Under the pieces are notes generated by a model that had not been told where the DNA came from, did no database searches, and saw only the letters and a list, made by a program, of their open reading frames with translations. Made by a program: the position numbers and the translations under genes. From an uncultured Lentisphaeria bacterium (GTDB lineage: Bacteria; Verrucomicrobiota; Lentisphaeria; JABSQK01; JAJFLO01), in the NCBI GenBank assembly GCA_951812855.1, contig OX638337.1, positions 1,650,001 through 1,682,000 of the forward strand: a DNA stretch of 32,000 nucleotides. The letters are read 5' to 3'. The first letter of the stretch is position 1. Every line of letters begins with the position of its first letter. Positions 13,385 to 23,124 of this stretch are shown here, one piece after another.

Positions 13385-13675
13385 TTATTCTGTTCCTAAA
13401 CCTATATCCCAAGAATCGATGTCAATAAATTTTTTCAAGGGATCATCTGGTCTAATTAATCGCGGATCAATCGAATAACACTCCCCCAGTTTCTCGAATA
13501 CTTTTTGGAAATTTGAATACTCTAATCTATAATCTTTAATCAGATCGTCATATAACGTTTTTAATGGCAGTGGTTCTCTAAATCCAAATAGTTGTTTTCT
13601 AATTTTTTGCCGATAAACTGATGTTAAAAAAAGCCAAATTAGAAATATTAGAAAAATTGTTATCAATTTAGTCAT
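13385..13675 (-). CDS. Putative immunity protein for orphan cassette 3 (N-terminal TM anchor)
   Basis: The 96-aa ORF has a hydrophobic N-terminus (MTKLITIFLIFLIWLFLTSV). Its ATG overlaps the stop of the upstream toxin-tip frame in an ATGA junction at 13671-13675, which is typical of toxin-immunity coupling. Confidence 0.55.
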   Translation of the reverse strand: MTKLITIFLIFLIWLFLTSVYRQKIRKQLFGFREPLPLKTLYDDLIKDYRLEYSNFQKVFEKLGECYSIDPRLIRPDDPLKKFIDIDSWDIGLGTE

Positions 13676-13990
13676 GGATTTGTAATAGATGACGGAAGAT
13701 TGACATATACTGCCCCTCCAATAAAAACACCTGCATTATAATAACCGATTCCCACTGTAATTGATCCAATAAATTCAGCTCCTTTTCTTATAATGGCAGT
13801 TCTTGCACCAGATACTCCTCTCAGTTAAACTTTTGTCACCCGGTTCCAAACCTAGGGCATCGTAAAGAGTTATCGGATTGTTTGTTACAAACTGATATAA
13901 ATTTATTCCACGTCCTTCACCTACCGGGTCTCTACTTAACCACCGCATGGAATCGGGATCATACCAGCGGCAGCCATAGTATATTCTCAA
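13671..13990 (-). pseudogene. Orphan RHS core-end plus C-terminal tip cassette 3, frameshifted
   Basis: RIYYGCRWYDPDSMRWLSRDPVGEGRGINLYQFVTNNPITLYDALGLEP is nearly identical at the DNA level to the core end of the main RHS gene. After a frameshift near 13825-13835 the tip continues as LRGVSGARTAIIRKGAEFIGSITVGIGYYNAGVFIGGAVYVNLPSSITNP. Confidence 0.65.
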
Positions 13991-14047
13991 AGGCGTGTCC
14001 TTTATTTACTTATTTATCTTGGCAGAATTCCTTGTGATACTGCCTGC

Positions 14048-14392
14048 TTAGTCAAGAGAAATAAGACCAAGAAACTTAAAAACAAGTACAGAAAAAATAC
14101 CTGACGCCATCCACAACAACATTCGTTTGTATGTTGACAAATAAAAATTTTGAAATTCTTCGCTCAAGAACTGTGAACGAGCTTTGGGGTCGATTATCGC
14201 CTGCCAAATATATTTAGGATCTGAAGTAGATATCAGTAATGGTATTTGAAATGAAACAATACCCCAAAAAATCAATGCAATATCACTATCCGTAGCCGTA
14301 GATATATACTTCCAACCGGATATACATAATGGTAAGAATATGACCCCGCATAGGACTGATGTAGCAGGCTGTCGAAAATCATACTTGTTCAT
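14048..14392 (-). CDS. Small integral membrane protein, about 3 TM segments (possible immunity component)
   Basis: The 114-aa ORF has three hydrophobic stretches: VLCGVIFLPLCISGW, IALIFWGIVSFQIPLLI and MLLWMASGIFSVLVFKFLGLI. Confidence 0.6.
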   Translation of the reverse strand: MNKYDFRQPATSVLCGVIFLPLCISGWKYISTATDSDIALIFWGIVSFQIPLLISTSDPKYIWQAIIDPKARSQFLSEEFQNFYLSTYKRMLLWMASGIFSVLVFKFLGLISLD

Positions 14393-20800: not shown

Positions 20801-22161
20801 AAAACAGTTTCGACATTTATAGCATTTGTGATTTTAGTGATGTTTCCCCGACTGTCGTATTCATATTTCGTACTGCGTCCATTTTCATCTATCTCTTTGG
20901 CCAAGAGTCCATTTGAGGCCCAAACATTTTGTTTTCCAGTATAATTAATATCAAACATATGAACTGGATCCAAGCTATAAATTAATTTGTAGTAATGCGG
21001 TTGGACAAAATCAAATTTATAAATCCAACTTTCACCTTTATTATTGAAAACTTCCGTTGTTGTCCATCGATAATCGAATGTTGTAATTTTCCCTTCCGGG
21101 TCTGTTTGTTGATATATTTTATCATTATATAAATACGTCATTTGATATAAGTTGCTATTGCGATCAGTATAGGTCTTCAAATTCCCGTTTTTATAATAAG
21201 AATATTGTCTTGATATGCCATTTCGTGGATATGTAACAGATGTCAGAAAATTATTTTCATCATATGAATATAACCATTGTCGCCCTGATGGATCGGTCAT
21301 TGAAGCTACTTTTCCATTTGCTCCATAACTTAATTGAACAATGCGCCCTACGCTGTCTATGATTGAGGTTACACGGTTTACAAAGTAGGTTTCAGGTGTA
21401 AGTAATGGATCAGATTCTACAAAAGCGATGTTATCCAACCAGACTGTACCAGAATTTTGGCGATTAAAGTCGAACTGAATTGCTGTCACCTGATTGATGT
21501 CTGCGCCGAGTGCAGCAAATTCAGAAAGTGGAATTTTAACAGTTAGCCAATCCATATACACAGAATATAAATCATACCCAGAAAGACTGTCACAATTATC
21601 ACACGAAAATGTTGACGTTGCACTTCTAACTGGAAGACTGAAATTTCCATTTGTACATTTCAAGGTTATGTTAAAATCTTCCCCTCCCACAGCTCCTTTA
21701 AAATCAAATTCTAATCGTTCAAAATTTGAAATATTCAATGGATTACCTGCACGATTCAGGCTTGAATTAAAATAACCCGATTGGTCTGACCATTCTGCCT
21801 TTAGGGTGTTATTAGCTAACTCCCAGGTCGTCAATGTATTATCGTCGTTTGTGTATAAACCAACTCCATTTGTGGCTAAATCGGTATCATTGAAATCATC
21901 TACCCAAATTTGATGCTGTGGTTTGGTATACGGTGGAACGGATGCTTGTATGGAATTATATTGCAGTGTTGTTTGATTTCCATTGAAGTCTTGCTCATAT
22001 AACAGATAACCATTGGAATCAAATTTTCGGATTAATAAATCTGTTAGATCTGTTAGAGTATATCCCCCATCAGTATCTTTGGTAAGTTCATTAAAATATC
22101 CAATAGGAGGAGTGAAACTTTGGGGCAATGGTCCCCCAGGAGTTTCAGGTATAAAAGTCAT
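17806..22161 (-). CDS. RHS/YD-repeat protein body (1451 aa) with an embedded CBM-like domain and an embedded TIM-barrel hydrolase-like domain
   Basis: Dozens of YD repeats are present (for example YEYDSRGNITKIT, FTYDDADNLITMTD, FEYDNNDNQTKVT and YDYDGNSNLIKIDY). Near the end the RHS-associated core sequence (RYIWGTDLSG...GGIGGLLGV...YLYNGRGDIIQV...YDYDPFGK) appears. Confidence 0.93.
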   Translation of the reverse strand: MTFIPETPGGPLPQSFTPPIGYFNELTKDTDGGYTLTDLTDLLIRKFDSNGYLLYEQDFNGNQTTLQYNSIQASVPPYTKPQHQIWVDDFNDTDLATNGVGLYTNDDNTLTTWELANNTLKAEWSDQSGYFNSSLNRAGNPLNISNFERLEFDFKGAVGGEDFNITLKCTNGNFSLPVRSATSTFSCDNCDSLSGYDLYSVYMDWLTVKIPLSEFAALGADINQVTAIQFDFNRQNSGTVWLDNIAFVESDPLLTPETYFVNRVTSIIDSVGRIVQLSYGANGKVASMTDPSGRQWLYSYDENNFLTSVTYPRNGISRQYSYYKNGNLKTYTDRNSNLYQMTYLYNDKIYQQTDPEGKITTFDYRWTTTEVFNNKGESWIYKFDFVQPHYYKLIYSLDPVHMFDINYTGKQNVWASNGLLAKEIDENGRSTKYEYDSRGNITKITNAINVETVFEYHPNFNKVTKQTEILSPSVSRLTTMIYDSNGNLLSITDPKNNTSSFSYTSDGQLATMTTPYGVVTYYGYNLQGDLTSVSIPGFETLSMQYDMVGRLLETNDLLFQTTTFTYDDADNLITMTDDANNVTTFEYDNNDNQTKVTTPNSAITTTVYNSYNEIASITDANGKITVFEYDGDDMLLLGSVNNTKITDADNNESSFIYNSQNQLVRINDASGYFLRFMYDYAGNLVKIINQNNETTEFIYNPLNQLWRKKFPDESYYEYFYDNVGNVVHKRSPNGAITTYDYDGNSNLIKIDYPSDTDVVFWYDKLNRPGWMTDASGRTDYVYDNANRLSQVFGPWANLYYTYNANGKRISIGNDVTNLVTYTYDSIKRLTSLTNQQNVFTYLYTSHTSAPERIDYANGSYSHIIRDSIDTVNRIVNYNSSNTVLSDFEYTRDNRYNITTEVQQNKTFSYAFDTISQLISRNESGGESIDYKYDPAGNHIDPISGNVTVTEDYSVPTPEFPTNNNRNTRSLWVRNHIDDPVNLLTDLNAQTALFDFCDAPHGDTSRAITRIYLAPGWHGENSFCENENDVASFIFAARQRGIEVYYSGGFYTWIVQVNGIDPYREYFINLVLNYNLSRQSTERFDGILEDIEPYNMESNDEGLLWPDDHFTIINRYEEVLTDIKTAVDAYELQTGTTLPLGSAIWTNYADDKLDQIVPIPDFIAIMNYKDSGQELITAAASEMSKASQYNKDIVLIFNTIEKVDPGDTFLEEGTVAMEQAINEFYTACSSYNQYNENGIFEYKTGYQSLPLNSSEPVDPVVTVSIQGTYSYNCDGNGNVTQTYNDAGELMTLSWNDADRLERVTFTSSGVNKKIEYLYNGEGKMSLRKYFENTITIDETRYVYDRWRIFEERDGANNLQKRYIWGTDLSGTFENAGGIGGLLGVIDYSSPTPEIYTYLYNGRGDIIQVISDSGVVVAEYDYDPFGKLTATSEIFDQNFGFSTKYKDTDSGLI

Positions 22162-22209
22162 GCGAAATGCATCATCAAATTCAACAGTGACGTTTCCATT
22201 TGCAGTCTC

Positions 22210-23124
22210 TCATAAATGGGAATTATAAGAACTTGTCCAGTTACCGAAAGGATAATCCAGATCGCGATAATTAAAATCTTCAGTCAATATATCATTTGTC
22301 AATGAATCTGTTAACTTTATATCATCATAATGAGCATGACTATATCGGGATTCTAATGCTATTTTTCCTAAAGGTAATGGATTGTTCTCAATATATTCAA
22401 TCACCAATATATCATTTAAATAGATAGTAATTACGCCACCTGATATGTCATCAATATCATCAATAATCTTAACTTTATTCCAATCTAACGGAGAAAATGA
22501 TGTGTCAAGCGATGCTAATAAGACATCTTGATATTCACTGCTATCATGTTTTAAAAGTGATATAGTACCATCCTGTCTGAGTATGACGATATAGCGTTTT
22601 GTTTTATCTGTATATCTAAAATTTATCCATGCACTTTCCACCGAAAATGCACCAGGATCTACAGTTCTAAAACTGACTTCAATAATTGATTTTGAATATT
22701 CATTATTACTCAACAAAATATCTCCTTGCCCACTTAAATTACCATTTTCAATTGTCCAGGAACCAGCCCCGTCATCAACAAACCAATTTTGCAGAAATGA
22801 AATTTGTTGTGCATTATATCGACGAGTTACTTCAACATCCAATCCCCGTGAGGGATACTCCAAATCAGTATGATCAAAATATAAATTTCCGTTTGTCAAT
22901 TCAACTGGATCATTTGAGCTTTTTCCCCTTCCAAAACCCGAACCTCCTCCTCCATTACCGCAGCCATTGCCAAATACTTTAGATGCTTGTGTATCAGTAA
23001 ATACATGCAAGCTATTGATACTGTGGTCATCACGATTCTTTTCATTATCCTGACTAAATACTCTAAAGATACACCCGATAAATAAGATAATTGTCAAACA
23101 AGTTATAATATTAATTTTTATCAA
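22210..23124 (-). CDS. RHS N-terminal module: signal peptide, Gly-rich linker, RHS entry motif and a LamG/DUF1080-like lectin-fold domain. It is joined in frame to the RHS body across a TGA.
   Basis: The signal peptide is MIKINIITCLTIILFIGCIFRVFSQ. DPVELTNGNLYFDHTDLEYPSRGLDVEVTRRYN is the usual start of RHS/YD proteins. The stop TGA at 22210-22212 is in frame with the ATG at 22161, with 16 sense codons between them. Confidence 0.8.
   Translation of the reverse strand: MIKINIITCLTIILFIGCIFRVFSQDNEKNRDDHSINSLHVFTDTQASKVFGNGCGNGGGGSGFGRGKSSNDPVELTNGNLYFDHTDLEYPSRGLDVEVTRRYNAQQISFLQNWFVDDGAGSWTIENGNLSGQGDILLSNNEYSKSIIEVSFRTVDPGAFSVESAWINFRYTDKTKRYIVILRQDGTISLLKHDSSEYQDVLLASLDTSFSPLDWNKVKIIDDIDDISGGVITIYLNDILVIEYIENNPLPLGKIALESRYSHAHYDDIKLTDSLTNDILTEDFNYRDLDYPFGNWTSSYNSHL

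What the first reader, a model, noticed from the sequence alone, without database searches (positions are those of the whole stretch)
13385..23124. Sec-signal RHS polymorphic-toxin locus with one tip and two orphan cassettes sharing a core-end recombination block
The last ~80 aa of the RHS core (YDPFGKL...FGFSTKY...YYGYRWYDP.SMRW.SRDP.GEG.GINL..FV.NNP....DALG) occur three times on the minus strand, at about 17663-17904, 16235-16474 and 13841-13999. DNA-level similarity between the copies is high. Each copy is followed by a different short C-terminal tip and by different small downstream genes. This is the architecture expected for toxin-tip switching by homologous recombination. The locus opens with a signal peptide, and no PAAR, VgrG or other T6SS genes lie within 32 kb. 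The cleavage-site motif reads DALGE/DALGL instead of the usual DPxGL.
Basis: partly seen in the sequence, partly recalled or inferred. Interest (0 to 1): 0.75.

Follow-up and report, generated by a model that had tools for sequence, protein, structure and literature searches.

The report
Broken RHS toxin gene with orphan tips
This is an ordinary type of bacterial toxin locus, an RHS gene followed by spare toxin tips and immunity genes, in an uncultivated PVC-group bacterium; the main gene is broken in two places, and a second strain in the same sample carries a different tip on the same body.

Summary
One RHS gene lies on the minus strand (23124→17423; RHS_repeat 2e-71, TIGR03696 3.5e-24). Its last ~46-77 codons occur three times, at 17669-17904, 16241-16474 and 13850-13984, with 79-92% DNA identity. 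Each copy has its own short tip and its own downstream genes. No T6SS gene lies in the 32 kb.

It carries an in-frame TGA at a conserved Trp codon (22210-22212) and a 5-bp tandem duplication (TTAAT×2, 17805-17814). The duplication shifts the frame just before the repeated block. Both lesions also occur in a second haplotype from the same sample.

That haplotype (L003, 99.5% identical flanks) joins the same body to a different tip. The crossover lies inside the core-end block. This is direct evidence of tip exchange.

Tip 2 and L003's tip X belong to a rare, unannotated family; tip 1 is a divergent relative. In unrelated metagenomes this family is always followed by a HEAT-repeat protein, a likely toxin/immunity cassette. 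A C39 peptidase gene directly upstream is conserved across this RHS subfamily.

Verdict: a new member of a known kind. It is probably recently inactivated and has some unusual accessory features.

The parts
23136..23690 (-). Stand-alone C39 cysteine peptidase gene (184 aa) with its own N-terminal hydrophobic signal-like segment. It ends 11 nt before the RHS start codon.
   Evidence: Pfam Peptidase_C39 3.5e-17. Q..NCGP, HHFIH and D motifs are read directly from the sequence. A homologue sits directly upstream of the intact orthologue in L002 (44% id). The domain is upstream of or fused to the RHS in 11 related loci.
22213..23124 (-). RHS N-terminal segment (304 codons). It holds the signal-like peptide (about 23053-23124), the SKVFGNGCGN motif (22954-22980), the first part of DUF6531 (22807-22911) and an inserted LamG-like 3-keto-disaccharide-hydrolase domain (22312-22791).
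   Evidence: Pfam PF06439 1.1e-8 and PF20148 9.8e-6. It aligns colinearly with the single-ORF orthologue P0002.
22210..22212 (-). In-frame TGA that interrupts the RHS gene at a codon that is Trp in the closest relatives.
   Evidence: Sequence. The alignment reads HLW/IW/LW in P0002 and P0003. TGA ends 6 other genes in the window, including EF-P, so it is a normal stop here. The TGA is present in L003, L023 and L024.
17806..22161 (-). RHS body ORF (1451 aa). It holds the rest of DUF6531, a CBM30/CIA30-like domain (21424-21807), the YD/RHS repeats forming the shell, a 310-aa insertion of unknown fold (18388-19317), and the first 31 codons of the RHS-associated core. It ends at the TAA created by the frameshift.
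   Evidence: RHS_repeat 2e-71 and CBM30 3.6e-8. YD_repeat_2x 6e-53. 53% identity over 95% of the repaired protein to the 1953-aa P0002. The insertion has no Pfam or PDB match.
17805..17814 (-). 5-bp tandem duplication TTAAT|TTAAT. It shifts the frame between ...DSGLI and YYGYRWYDP, exactly at the 5' edge of the block shared with orphan 3.
   Evidence: Removing one TTAAT restores a continuous 1898-codon reading frame. Orphan 2 lacks the 5 nt. The duplication is identical in L003.
17669..17904 (-). Main-gene copy of the RHS-associated core end (YDPFGKL...IDALG|E). This is the recombination block.
   Evidence: TIGR03696 3.5e-24 on the repaired protein, residues 1741-1816. blastn and tblastn.
17426..17671 (-). 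Tip 1 (82 aa after DALG). It has a Gly/Ala-rich hydrophobic segment, then GHGNNKRPSNWDKH, then a polybasic tail.
   Evidence: KD19 1.48; +10 net charge in the last 40 aa. No Pfam hit. It matches the tip profile (E 4e-26, but it is one of the three sequences the profile was built from); pairwise it is 28-32% identical to tip 2 (tblastn E 0.004).
16561..17121 (-). 186-aa gene downstream of tip 1. It is the candidate cognate immunity protein by position only.
   Evidence: No Pfam, NCBIfam or confident AF2 model. Absent from haplotype L003 together with tip 1.
15950..16474 (-). Orphan 2: a complete 76-aa core end (16241-16474) plus tip 2 (15950-16243, 98 aa). There is no body, no ATG start, and in-frame stops lie just upstream.
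   Evidence: TIGR03696 1.8e-23. Sequence. Tip 2 is 47% identical to L003's tip X. Profile match 1.2e-43 is a self-match (tip 2 is a query sequence).
15171..15911 (-). HEAT-repeat protein (246 aa), the candidate immunity to tip 2. Its last 16 codons (15174-15221, EDKFRKNRNKSKRNCN) are the tail of a tip-X-type tip fused on by a rearrangement.
   Evidence: HEAT_2 2.3e-14. The tail is 100% identical to the L003 tip X tail. 36% identical to HEAT-215.
14455..15102 (-). HEAT-repeat protein (215 aa). It is the cognate partner of tip X, which is attached to the body in haplotype L003. In the window it is retained without its toxin.
   Evidence: HEAT_2 8e-23. It follows tip X directly in L003. 40% id over 215 aa (E 7e-56) to the HEAT protein after tip P0133 in L025, and 34% to that after P0135 in L029. 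The same holds in L032.
14048..14392 (-). 114-aa predicted membrane protein between HEAT-215 and orphan 3. It is possibly a leftover immunity gene.
   Evidence: Hydrophobic segments (KD19 1.98). No family hit. Conserved in L003.
13775..13990 (-). Orphan 3: a truncated core end (last 46 codons, 13850-13987) plus 23 codons and a stop. An overlapping frame continues with a Gly-zipper-like hydrophobic stretch, so the tip looks frameshifted.
   Evidence: TIGR03696 2.6e-16, model positions 31-76. Three-frame translation. Identical in L003.
13385..13675 (-). 96-aa ORF with an N-terminal transmembrane helix, downstream of orphan 3. It is a candidate immunity gene. Here it is cut short by a TAA where L003 has GAA (131 aa).
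   Evidence: KD19 2.21.

Best explanation
The region is a Sec-signal RHS (YD-repeat) polymorphic-toxin locus of an uncultivated PVC-group bacterium, built by C-terminal displacement. One ancestral gene of about 1900 codons encodes five elements: a signal peptide, a plug domain with a LamG-like insert, a CBM-like domain, the RHS shell, and the RHS-associated core end (an aspartyl autoprotease that here reads DALG|E). A short C-terminal tip follows. Downstream lies an array of displaced cassettes: tip 1 with a 186-aa gene; orphan 2 (core end plus tip 2) with HEAT-246; a 16-codon remnant of a tip-X-type tip with HEAT-215; and orphan 3 (half a core end plus a broken tip) with a small membrane protein. 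The shared core-end block is where new tips are joined to the body by homologous recombination. A co-occurring haplotype shows this, because it carries the same body joined to tip X through a mosaic core end. Tip 2 and tip X belong to a small, unannotated family, and tip 1 is a divergent relative: a hydrophobic Gly/Ala-rich segment is followed by a KGGKQNIRDTGL-type motif and a polybasic tail ending in Cys-x. I infer that it is a toxin neutralised by the cognate HEAT-repeat protein. In the window, and in every other copy found, the main gene is interrupted by a TGA and by a 5-bp duplication. Only the first 304-residue fragment keeps the signal peptide, and the shell is uncoupled from its core end and tip. 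The locus is therefore most likely a recently inactivated toxin gene whose immunity genes are still intact. Shown here: domain identities, the repeats, the lesions, the haplotype difference and the tip-HEAT linkage. Inferred: toxicity, immunity, the export route and the loss of function.
For: RHS identity: RHS_repeat 2e-71, DUF6531, LamG-like and CBM30-like domains; YD_repeat 6e-53 and TIGR03696 3.5e-24. One ancestral gene: the intact 1953-aa orthologue P0002 covers 95% of the repaired protein at 53% identity, with Trp at the TGA position and no frameshift. Repeats. Lesions; TGA is an ordinary stop in 6 other genes. The lesions are shared by L003 and by the haplotigs L023 and L024. Tip exchange: L003 is 99.5% identical over 14.3 kb up to window position 17658. 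It then lacks 17657-15223 and carries tip X, which is followed directly by HEAT-215. A four-way alignment shows that L003's core end equals the window's main copy up to ...CAGTTTGT. It then carries three orphan-3-specific bases, then about 75 nt identical to orphan 2. Tip X's last 16 codons survive in the window as the tail of the HEAT-246 ORF. Cassette nature: a full HMMER search of 1.84 billion representatives with the tip profile finds only 8 proteins. Three are the query sequences themselves, one is a glycine-rich repeat protein set aside as irrelevant, and four (P0132-P0135) are relatives from elsewhere. Two of those four (P0133, P0135) carry RHS core ends. In all three informative contexts the tip is followed by a 206-235-aa HEAT protein homologous to HEAT-215. 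Imm-HEAT is a recognised immunity class in polymorphic toxin systems (PMC3482391). Orphan arrays also occur in relatives L010 and L020. The displacement model is that of PMC2935791.
Against: No toxicity, immunity or secretion has been tested. The tips match no toxin family in Pfam or PDB. The 186-aa, 114-aa and 96-aa genes are called immunity candidates from position only. Loss of function is inferred from reading frames alone. Between the two haplotypes the RHS body and N-terminal part show dN/dS 0.45 and 0.32 (21 nonsynonymous vs 14 synonymous changes). That is fewer nonsynonymous changes than neutrality predicts under Nei-Gojobori counting (P=0.009), but not after allowing for transition bias (P about 0.08). 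Continuing constraint on the split gene is therefore not excluded. All copies come from one ENA sample or from the same population, so the lesions have no fully independent confirmation.
Confidence: 0.75

Rival explanations
1. The three-ORF arrangement is functional. The N-terminal fragment, the shell and the core-end-plus-tip fragment would be made separately, by re-initiation at the ATG after the TGA (ATGA overlap in L003) and at the ATG of ...SMRW..., and would assemble much as TcB and TcC do.
For: Both lesions are shared by two haplotypes that differ by 35 substitutions in the gene, with dN/dS below 1. No further stop or indel occurs inside the 1451-codon body in either haplotype. The only indel in 14.3 kb of alignment lies in the 48 nt between the TGA and the next ATG. 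In L003 it creates an ATGA stop/start overlap in frame with the body (chance 0.3%).
Against: Only the first fragment has a signal peptide, so the shell and the tip would stay in the cytoplasm. The third fragment would start inside the core domain and lack YYGYRWYDP. No slippery heptamer or homopolymer is present at the frameshift site (sequence), so programmed frameshifting is unlikely. The intact orthologue and all relatives examined are single ORFs. The dN/dS signal loses significance once transition bias is allowed for.
Confidence: 0.12
2. The interruptions are assembly or consensus errors, and the gene is really one intact ORF.
For: All copies (window, L001, L003, L023, L024) trace to one sample, ERZ18545485, or to the same population. 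They are not fully independent.
Against: The lesions are a G-to-A substitution and a 5-bp tandem duplication in non-homopolymer sequence. Neither is a typical long-read consensus error. Both appear in two distinct haplotypes that differ at 69 positions nearby, and the TGA also appears in two further haplotigs.
Confidence: 0.05
3. The RHS protein is a surface glycan-binding or adhesion protein (teneurin-like). In this view the short C-terminal pieces are membrane anchors rather than toxins, and the HEAT genes are unrelated neighbours.
For: LamG-like, CBM30-like and a further inserted domain decorate the shell. The tips are short and consist of a hydrophobic segment plus a basic tail, like a tail anchor. 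No toxin family is matched.
Against: The tip varies between near-identical haplotypes while the body does not. Tips occur as orphan cassettes with core-end homology. The tip family is linked to a cognate HEAT protein in unrelated contigs even when no RHS body is nearby. The core end keeps the autoprotease motifs that detach the tip.
Confidence: 0.06

Closest known systems
Enterobacterial rhs loci with displaced 'orphan' tips (C-terminal displacement: Jackson et al. 2009, PMC2935791; orphan toxin/immunity pairs: Poole et al. 2011, PMC3150448; Koskiniemi et al. 2014, PMC3967940)
   Same: A long YD-repeat body ends in a conserved core. The core-end fragments are repeated downstream, each with its own tip and small downstream gene. 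Recombination at the core end changes the expressed tip, seen here between the window and L003.
   Different: The N-terminus is a signal peptide, not PAAR or VgrG-linked, and no T6SS genes lie nearby. The cleavage motif is DALG rather than DPxGL. The host belongs to the PVC group. The main gene is interrupted twice.
Bacillus subtilis WapA and other Sec-dependent ('T2SS' class of Zhang et al. 2012, PMC3482391) RHS/YD toxins
   Same: A Sec-type signal peptide is combined with YD repeats, a variable C-terminal toxin and an adjacent immunity gene. (WapA is cited from my own knowledge; the class is.)
   Different: The host has LPS genes next to the locus (Kdo kinases, an LpxA-like gene). It is therefore probably diderm, and passage across the outer membrane is unexplained. 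The upstream C39 peptidase is conserved. LamG, CBM and unknown domains are inserted in the shell.
Ntox34 (PF15606) with Imm-HEAT, as tabulated by Zhang et al. 2012
   Same: It is a small (80-position) RHS-borne toxin domain with a GNxxD motif and many charged residues, and its immunity protein is a HEAT-repeat protein. The tips here carry [GK]QNxxD / GNQxxxD, a basic tail, and a HEAT partner.
   Different: The sequence test fails. hmmscan gives only E=0.33 for one family member and nothing for the window tips. No WxCxH motif is present. The tips have an N-terminal hydrophobic Gly/Ala segment.
Pseudomonas aeruginosa Tse5 (Rhs pore-forming toxin, PMC10684867)
   Same: It is an Rhs-encapsulated C-terminal fragment with a hydrophobic, glycine-zipper-type segment. 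Weak Gly-zipper hits occur here (E 0.012-0.04; KD19 1.5-1.9).
   Different: Tse5 is T6SS-delivered, and per my own knowledge its immunity protein is a membrane protein. Here the conserved partner is a soluble HEAT-repeat protein and most of the tip is polybasic, which points at least as much to a cytoplasmic target.
Vibrio cholerae immunity-gene arrays formed by sequential effector displacement (PMC5361080)
   Same: An immunity gene is retained after its toxin is lost. The window keeps HEAT-215 and only 16 codons of tip X, while the co-occurring haplotype has tip X joined to its body.
   Different: The effector type is different (T6SS auxiliary clusters, not RHS).

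Membership tests
RHS/YD-repeat polymorphic toxin | Multiple RHS/YD repeats forming the shell | tested here: met
   PF05593 2e-71 with 6 stretches. TIGR01643 6e-53. TEN_YD-shell hits are precomputed.
RHS/YD-repeat polymorphic toxin | RHS-associated core domain (TIGR03696) ending in the autoproteolytic DPxGL-type motif | tested here: met
   3.5e-24 on the repaired main gene, model positions 1-75 of 76; 1.8e-23 on orphan 2. 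The motif reads DALG[EL], i.e. Pro is replaced by Ala, and both Asp positions (SRDP, xDALG) are present. Cleavage itself was not tested.
RHS/YD-repeat polymorphic toxin | Body, core and tip in one uninterrupted ORF | tested here: not met
   In-frame TGA at 22210-22212 and a 5-bp duplication at 17805-17814. The orthologue P0002 is one ORF.
RHS/YD-repeat polymorphic toxin | Variable C-terminal toxin domain with a cognate immunity gene immediately downstream | tested here: inconclusive
   The tips vary between haplotypes, and the tip family is always followed by a HEAT protein. No known toxin family is matched, and there is no functional test.
rhs orphan array (C-terminal displacement) | Downstream fragments that keep core-end homology and carry different tips | tested here: met
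   A recombinant junction inside the block is seen in L003.
T6SS-delivered Rhs effector | N-terminal PAAR or linkage to vgrG, EagR-type chaperone or T6SS genes | tested here: not met
   No such Pfam family on the protein or in the 32-kb window. The rest of the roughly 1.94-Mb genome could not be examined.
Tc toxin TcB/TcC | SpvB/TcdB-type N-terminal region and an adjacent TcA | tested here: not met
   No such domains are found.
Ntox34 / Imm-HEAT pair | Tip matches PF15606 | tested here: not met
   The best hit is E=0.33 (11.5 bits, cut-off 25) for P0132 only. None is found for the window tips.
Ntox34 / Imm-HEAT pair | HEAT-repeat protein encoded directly downstream of the tip | tested here: met
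   HEAT_2 8e-23 and 2.3e-14. Linkage is conserved in L003, L025, L029/L030 and L032.
C39 (double-glycine leader) peptidase processing | C39 domain with Gln/Cys/His/Asp catalytic residues | tested here: met
   PF03412 3.5e-17, profile positions 9-133 of 133. The residues are read from the sequence (QTANCGP, HHFIH, DSD) and were not checked structurally.
C39 (double-glycine leader) peptidase processing | Substrate with an LSxxELxxIxGG-type leader that is cleaved after GG | tested here: inconclusive
   Relatives with a fused C39 show ...EL[KR]xI[LIF]GGxxCxN right after the peptidase. The window has the weaker SKVFGNGCGN. Cys and Asn are invariant in 6 of 6 sequences. Cleavage cannot be tested here.

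The most novel reading that the evidence does not exclude
This reading sees a distinct, undescribed sub-class of Sec-exported RHS toxins in PVC-group and other uncultivated bacteria. The pro-protein would be matured at its N-terminus by a dedicated C39 peptidase, encoded upstream or fused, which cuts a double-glycine-type leader to expose a conserved xxCxN N-terminus. The cargo would be a new family of about 100-aa tips (hydrophobic Gly/Ala segment, KGGKQNIRDTGL motif, polybasic tail ending in Cys-x) neutralised by dedicated HEAT-repeat immunity proteins. Two co-existing haplotypes in one population carry different tips on the same body, and one retains immunity to the other's tip. That is the genomic pattern expected from toxin/immunity turnover within a wild, uncultivated population.
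Probability: 0.4. Interest if true: 0.6.

Novelty: new member of a known kind. Interest (0 to 1): 0.42.

Why it matters
RHS loci with orphan tips are textbook, so the architecture itself is not news. This case offers three leads beyond that. First, tip replacement is caught in a natural setting: two 99.5%-identical genomes from one metagenome differ at the tip, with a mosaic crossover inside the core-end block, and the genome that lost tip X keeps its cognate immunity gene. Second, it defines a rare tip family with a strictly linked HEAT-repeat partner, a testable new toxin/immunity pair. Only four relatives from outside this population turned up among 1.84 billion representative proteins. Third, it points to a conserved C39 peptidase plus double-glycine-like motif at the N-terminus of a whole subfamily of Sec-signal RHS proteins. 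That suggests a maturation step not described for RHS toxins in the papers I could search. The two disabling lesions are also a warning for annotation, because automatic gene calls split this gene into three 'proteins'.

Tried and rejected
1. Alternative genetic code (TGA=Trp/Gly): rejected. TGA terminates 6 other well-formed genes, including EF-P and EpmA, and the 1451-codon body has no internal TGA.
2. Programmed -1 frameshift or transcriptional slippage at the TTAAT duplication: rejected. There is no X_XXY_YYZ heptamer or homopolymer at the site.
3. Independent confirmation of the lesions: L001 is 100% identical to the window, so it is the same haplotype. L003, L023 and L024 share the lesions but come from the same sample.
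4. Genome-contig scan with the body found only distant RHS genes at 24-30% identity; the source genome is not in that collection.
5. Exact-DNA scan of metagenome contigs with the body end gave 0 hits.
6. The word-index protein search with the tip profile returned only self hits. The full HMMER search was needed to find relatives.
7. Pfam, NCBIfam and PDB sequence searches of the tips found nothing significant.
8. AlphaFold2 of the 186-aa gene (pLDDT 51) and of the 310-aa shell insertion (pLDDT 43) was too poor for a fold search, so none was run.
9. The promoter/terminator scan gave 53 promoter-like sites against 48 expected, which is uninformative.
10. dN/dS as a test of pseudogene status is inconclusive.
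11. Taxonomy from EF-P: named hits at 67-69% identity are split between Lentisphaerota and Ca. Auribacterota, so only 'PVC group' is safe.

Full report
**What is in the sequence**

On the minus strand, three consecutive ORFs make up one ancestral RHS gene: 22210-23124 (304 aa), 17806-22161 (1451 aa) and 17423-17770 (115 aa).

- The first ORF has an N-terminal hydrophobic signal-like segment, the start of the DUF6531 plug domain and an inserted LamG-like domain (PF06439, 1.1e-8).
- The second ORF has a CBM30-like domain and RHS repeats (PF05593, 2e-71).
- The two ORFs are in the same frame and are separated only by a TGA.
- The second ORF stops at a TAA. That stop is created by a 5-bp tandem duplication, TTAAT|TTAAT (17805-17814), between ...DSGLI and YYGYRWYDP.

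Deleting one TTAAT gives an 1898-codon frame with a single internal TGA. On that repaired protein the RHS-associated core model TIGR03696 scores 3.5e-24.

The closest relative is a 1953-aa single-ORF protein of a Ca. Auribacterota MAG (P0002). It is 53% identical over 95% of the length, has Trp at the TGA position and has no frameshift. TGA is a normal stop here, since it ends six other genes in the window. The main gene is therefore interrupted twice.

**The repeated block**

tblastn and blastn find exactly three core-end copies.

| Copy | Coordinates | Relation to the main copy |
|---|---|---|
| Main | 17669-17904 | n/a |
| Orphan 2 | 16241-16474 | complete 76-aa domain; 78.7% DNA identity over 221 nt, differing by the 5-nt duplication |
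| Orphan 3 | 13850-13984 | last 46 codons only; 91.9% DNA identity over 111 nt |

Synonymous divergence is 0.31-0.35 in the centre of the block and 0.86 upstream of it. The homology of orphan 3 begins within a few bases of the TTAAT duplication.

**Surroundings**

The neighbours are housekeeping or envelope genes:

- Kdo/WaaP-type kinases, a GT4 glycosyltransferase and a methyltransferase
- thioredoxin, chorismate mutase and an LpxA-like acyltransferase
- EF-P and EpmA
- a DNA methylase, a TetR regulator, GcvT, an amidohydrolase and a nucleoside phosphorylase

No PAAR, VgrG or other T6SS family appears. The LPS genes suggest a diderm host. EF-P relatives that carry names are Lentisphaerota and Ca. 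Auribacterota at 67-69% identity, so the host belongs to the PVC group.

**Strain comparison**

The 1451-aa ORF belongs to a cluster with a second member (P0120). That member lies on a 1.94-Mb contig of ENA sample ERZ18545485 (L003). A 20-kb contig in the same sample is 100% identical to the window (L001).

- L003 matches the window at 99.5% from position 32000 down to 17658, and again from 15222 down to 13055.
- Between these stretches the window has 2.4 kb that L003 lacks: tip 1, the 186-aa gene, orphan 2 and most of HEAT-246.
- In that place L003 has about 240 nt encoding a different tip, tip X. Tip X is followed directly by the 215-aa HEAT gene.
- A four-way alignment shows that L003's core end is a mosaic. 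It equals the window's main copy up to CAGTTTGT, then carries three orphan-3-specific bases, then about 75 nt identical to orphan 2. It then diverges from tip 2.
- The last 16 codons of tip X (EDKFRKNRNKSKRNCN) are present in the window as the C-terminal tail of the HEAT-246 ORF.

They also show that the window haplotype kept the immunity gene for a tip it no longer has.

**Status of the main gene**

L003 has the same TGA and the same TTAAT duplication. It also has a 1-nt deletion 13 nt after the TGA, which puts an ATG in frame with the body (an ATGA overlap). Two further haplotigs share the TGA split.

- Between haplotypes the body has 15 nonsynonymous and 9 synonymous changes (dN/dS 0.45).
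- The N-terminal part has 6 nonsynonymous and 5 synonymous changes (dN/dS 0.32).
- The joint excess of synonymous changes gives P=0.009 with Nei-Gojobori site counts. It gives only about 0.08 if transitions are favoured.

I therefore cannot decide between a recent pseudogene and a still-constrained split gene from this test alone. The mechanistic argument favours inactivation. Only the first fragment has a signal peptide. The third fragment would start inside the core domain. There is no slippery site for programmed frameshifting.

**The tips and their partners**

Tips 1, 2 and X share four features:

- the first residues, ENPLV
- a Gly/Ala-rich hydrophobic segment (Kyte-Doolittle-19 of 1.5-1.9)
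- a motif around G-[KN]-x-N
- a tail with +8 to +12 net charge in the last 40 residues

They match nothing in Pfam, NCBIfam or PDB. A word-index search of 5.8 billion proteins returned only themselves.

A full HMMER search of 1.84 billion representatives returned 8 proteins. Three are the query sequences themselves, and one is a 2096-aa glycine-rich repeat protein that I set aside. The remaining four are relatives from elsewhere (P0132-P0135, E 1.5e-6 to 6e-4). They define a family with this consensus: hydrophobic G/A segment, KGGKQNIRDTGL, SxxEI, KExxRYxKExKxRKxRNKxKRxC[PN] at the end.

- Tip X is a typical member, tip 2 a degenerate one, and tip 1 the most divergent.
- Tip 1's GNNKRPSNWDKH resembles tips in L010 and L025.
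- Two of the four outside relatives (P0133, P0135) sit on RHS core ends.
- In all three contexts long enough to judge (L025, L029/L030, L032), the next gene is a 206-235-aa HEAT-repeat protein.
- These HEAT proteins are homologous to the window's HEAT-215: 40% identity over 215 aa (E 7e-56) and 34% (E 7e-30).

Zhang et al. 2012 list HEAT repeats as an immunity class (Imm-HEAT). They pair it with Ntox34, an 80-position RHS-borne domain with a GNxxD motif. The resemblance is suggestive, but the HMM test fails (best E=0.33).

**How it most likely works**

1. The pro-protein is exported by Sec. This is inferred from the signal peptide.
2. The shell encloses the tip, which is cut off at DALG|E by the core's aspartyl protease. 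This is inferred from TIGR03696 and from established RHS structures.
3. The LamG-like, CBM30-like and unknown inserted domains on the shell probably bind target-surface glycans. This is an inference.
4. The tip's hydrophobic segment may insert into a membrane, while the polybasic part acts on, or is held by, an acidic partner. The soluble HEAT protein would sequester it in the producer. This is an inference.
5. New tips enter by recombination at the core end, and old cassettes pile up downstream. This step is shown by the L003 comparison.

In the present genomes steps 1-4 are probably disabled by the two lesions.

**Comparison with what is known**

The architecture matches the enterobacterial rhs displacement model (PMC2935791; PMC3150448; PMC3967940). 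It also matches the Sec-dependent RHS class of Zhang et al.. Retention of an immunity gene after loss of its toxin parallels the Vibrio arrays (PMC5361080). Orphan arrays also occur in relatives of this subfamily, L010 and L020.

The locus is thus a new member of a known kind. Its unusual features are the PVC-group host, the DALG variant, the conserved C39 partner, the inserted shell domains, the new tip family, and the fact that the gene is broken.

Noticed in passing
window 23136-23690 (-) and 22954-22980 (-); loci L002, L008, L010-L013, L015-L018, L021: A C39 peptidase is encoded directly upstream of, or fused N-terminally to, the RHS in 11 related loci. Right after it comes a double-glycine-leader-like motif ...EL[KR]xI[LIF]GGxxCxN; the window has SKVFGNGCGN. 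Relatives without C39 go straight from the signal peptide to ..PPC[NH]NTN. Cys and Asn are invariant in 6 of 6 aligned proteins. This suggests N-terminal maturation by C39. Zhang et al. 2012 list C39 in polymorphic toxins only as a toxin domain, and two full-text searches found no paper on this.
   Followed up: partly
window 18388-19317 (-): A 310-aa domain is inserted in the RHS shell. It is conserved in P0002 (58% id) and has no Pfam or PDB sequence match. The AF2 model is poor (pLDDT 43) but shows alternating strand/helix elements. The motif FDGILEDIEPY recalls glycoside-hydrolase TIM barrels (my reading only). Other subfamily members carry different inserts at the same point.
   Followed up: partly
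tips: window 15950-15955 (tip 2); L003 14838-14843; P0132, P0133, P0135; the main tip in L025; an orphan tip in L010: Most tips of this kind end with a Cys at the second-to-last position after a polybasic run (..ACN..NCN..KCP..NCP..ECP..PCS..SCA). Tip 1 and P0134 lack it. The meaning is unknown.
   Followed up: no
window 22162-22209 (-) vs L003 10004-10050: The only indel in 14.3 kb of alignment between the two haplotypes is a 1-nt deletion in L003, 13 nt after the in-frame TGA. It creates an ATGA stop/start overlap in frame with the RHS body. The chance of it falling in this 48-nt stretch is about 0.3%.
   Followed up: partly
window 13385-13387 (-) vs L003 16628: The 96-aa membrane-protein ORF after orphan 3 ends at a TAA where L003 has GAA and continues to 131 aa. 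This is one more disabling change in the window haplotype.
   Followed up: yes
window 12945-13055 vs L003 16968-17782: L003 carries about 815 nt with two small ORFs (128 and 99 aa, no Pfam hit) at the distal end of the array. The window lacks them.
   Followed up: partly
window 12391-12717 (-); L031 762-857: A DUF4288 gene (4.6e-6) sits at the far end of the array. The truncated gene after tip P0132 in L031 begins MWFCAHAIFYF...FLIHENIYL, which resembles the start of the window's DUF4288 protein. DUF4288 may be another immunity-type family in such arrays. This is untested.
   Followed up: no
window 23702-23878 (-): A 58-aa ORF made of bacterial thrombospondin-type-3 (calcium-binding) repeats (3e-7) lies 11 nt upstream of the C39 gene in the same orientation. 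It is conserved in L003 but not in L002.
   Followed up: no
L002 20081-21973 (-): About 4 kb downstream of the intact orthologue in the Auribacterota MAG lie genes with T6SS_Tle1-like lipase and Endonuclease_NS domains. They may be further toxin genes and were not examined.
   Followed up: no
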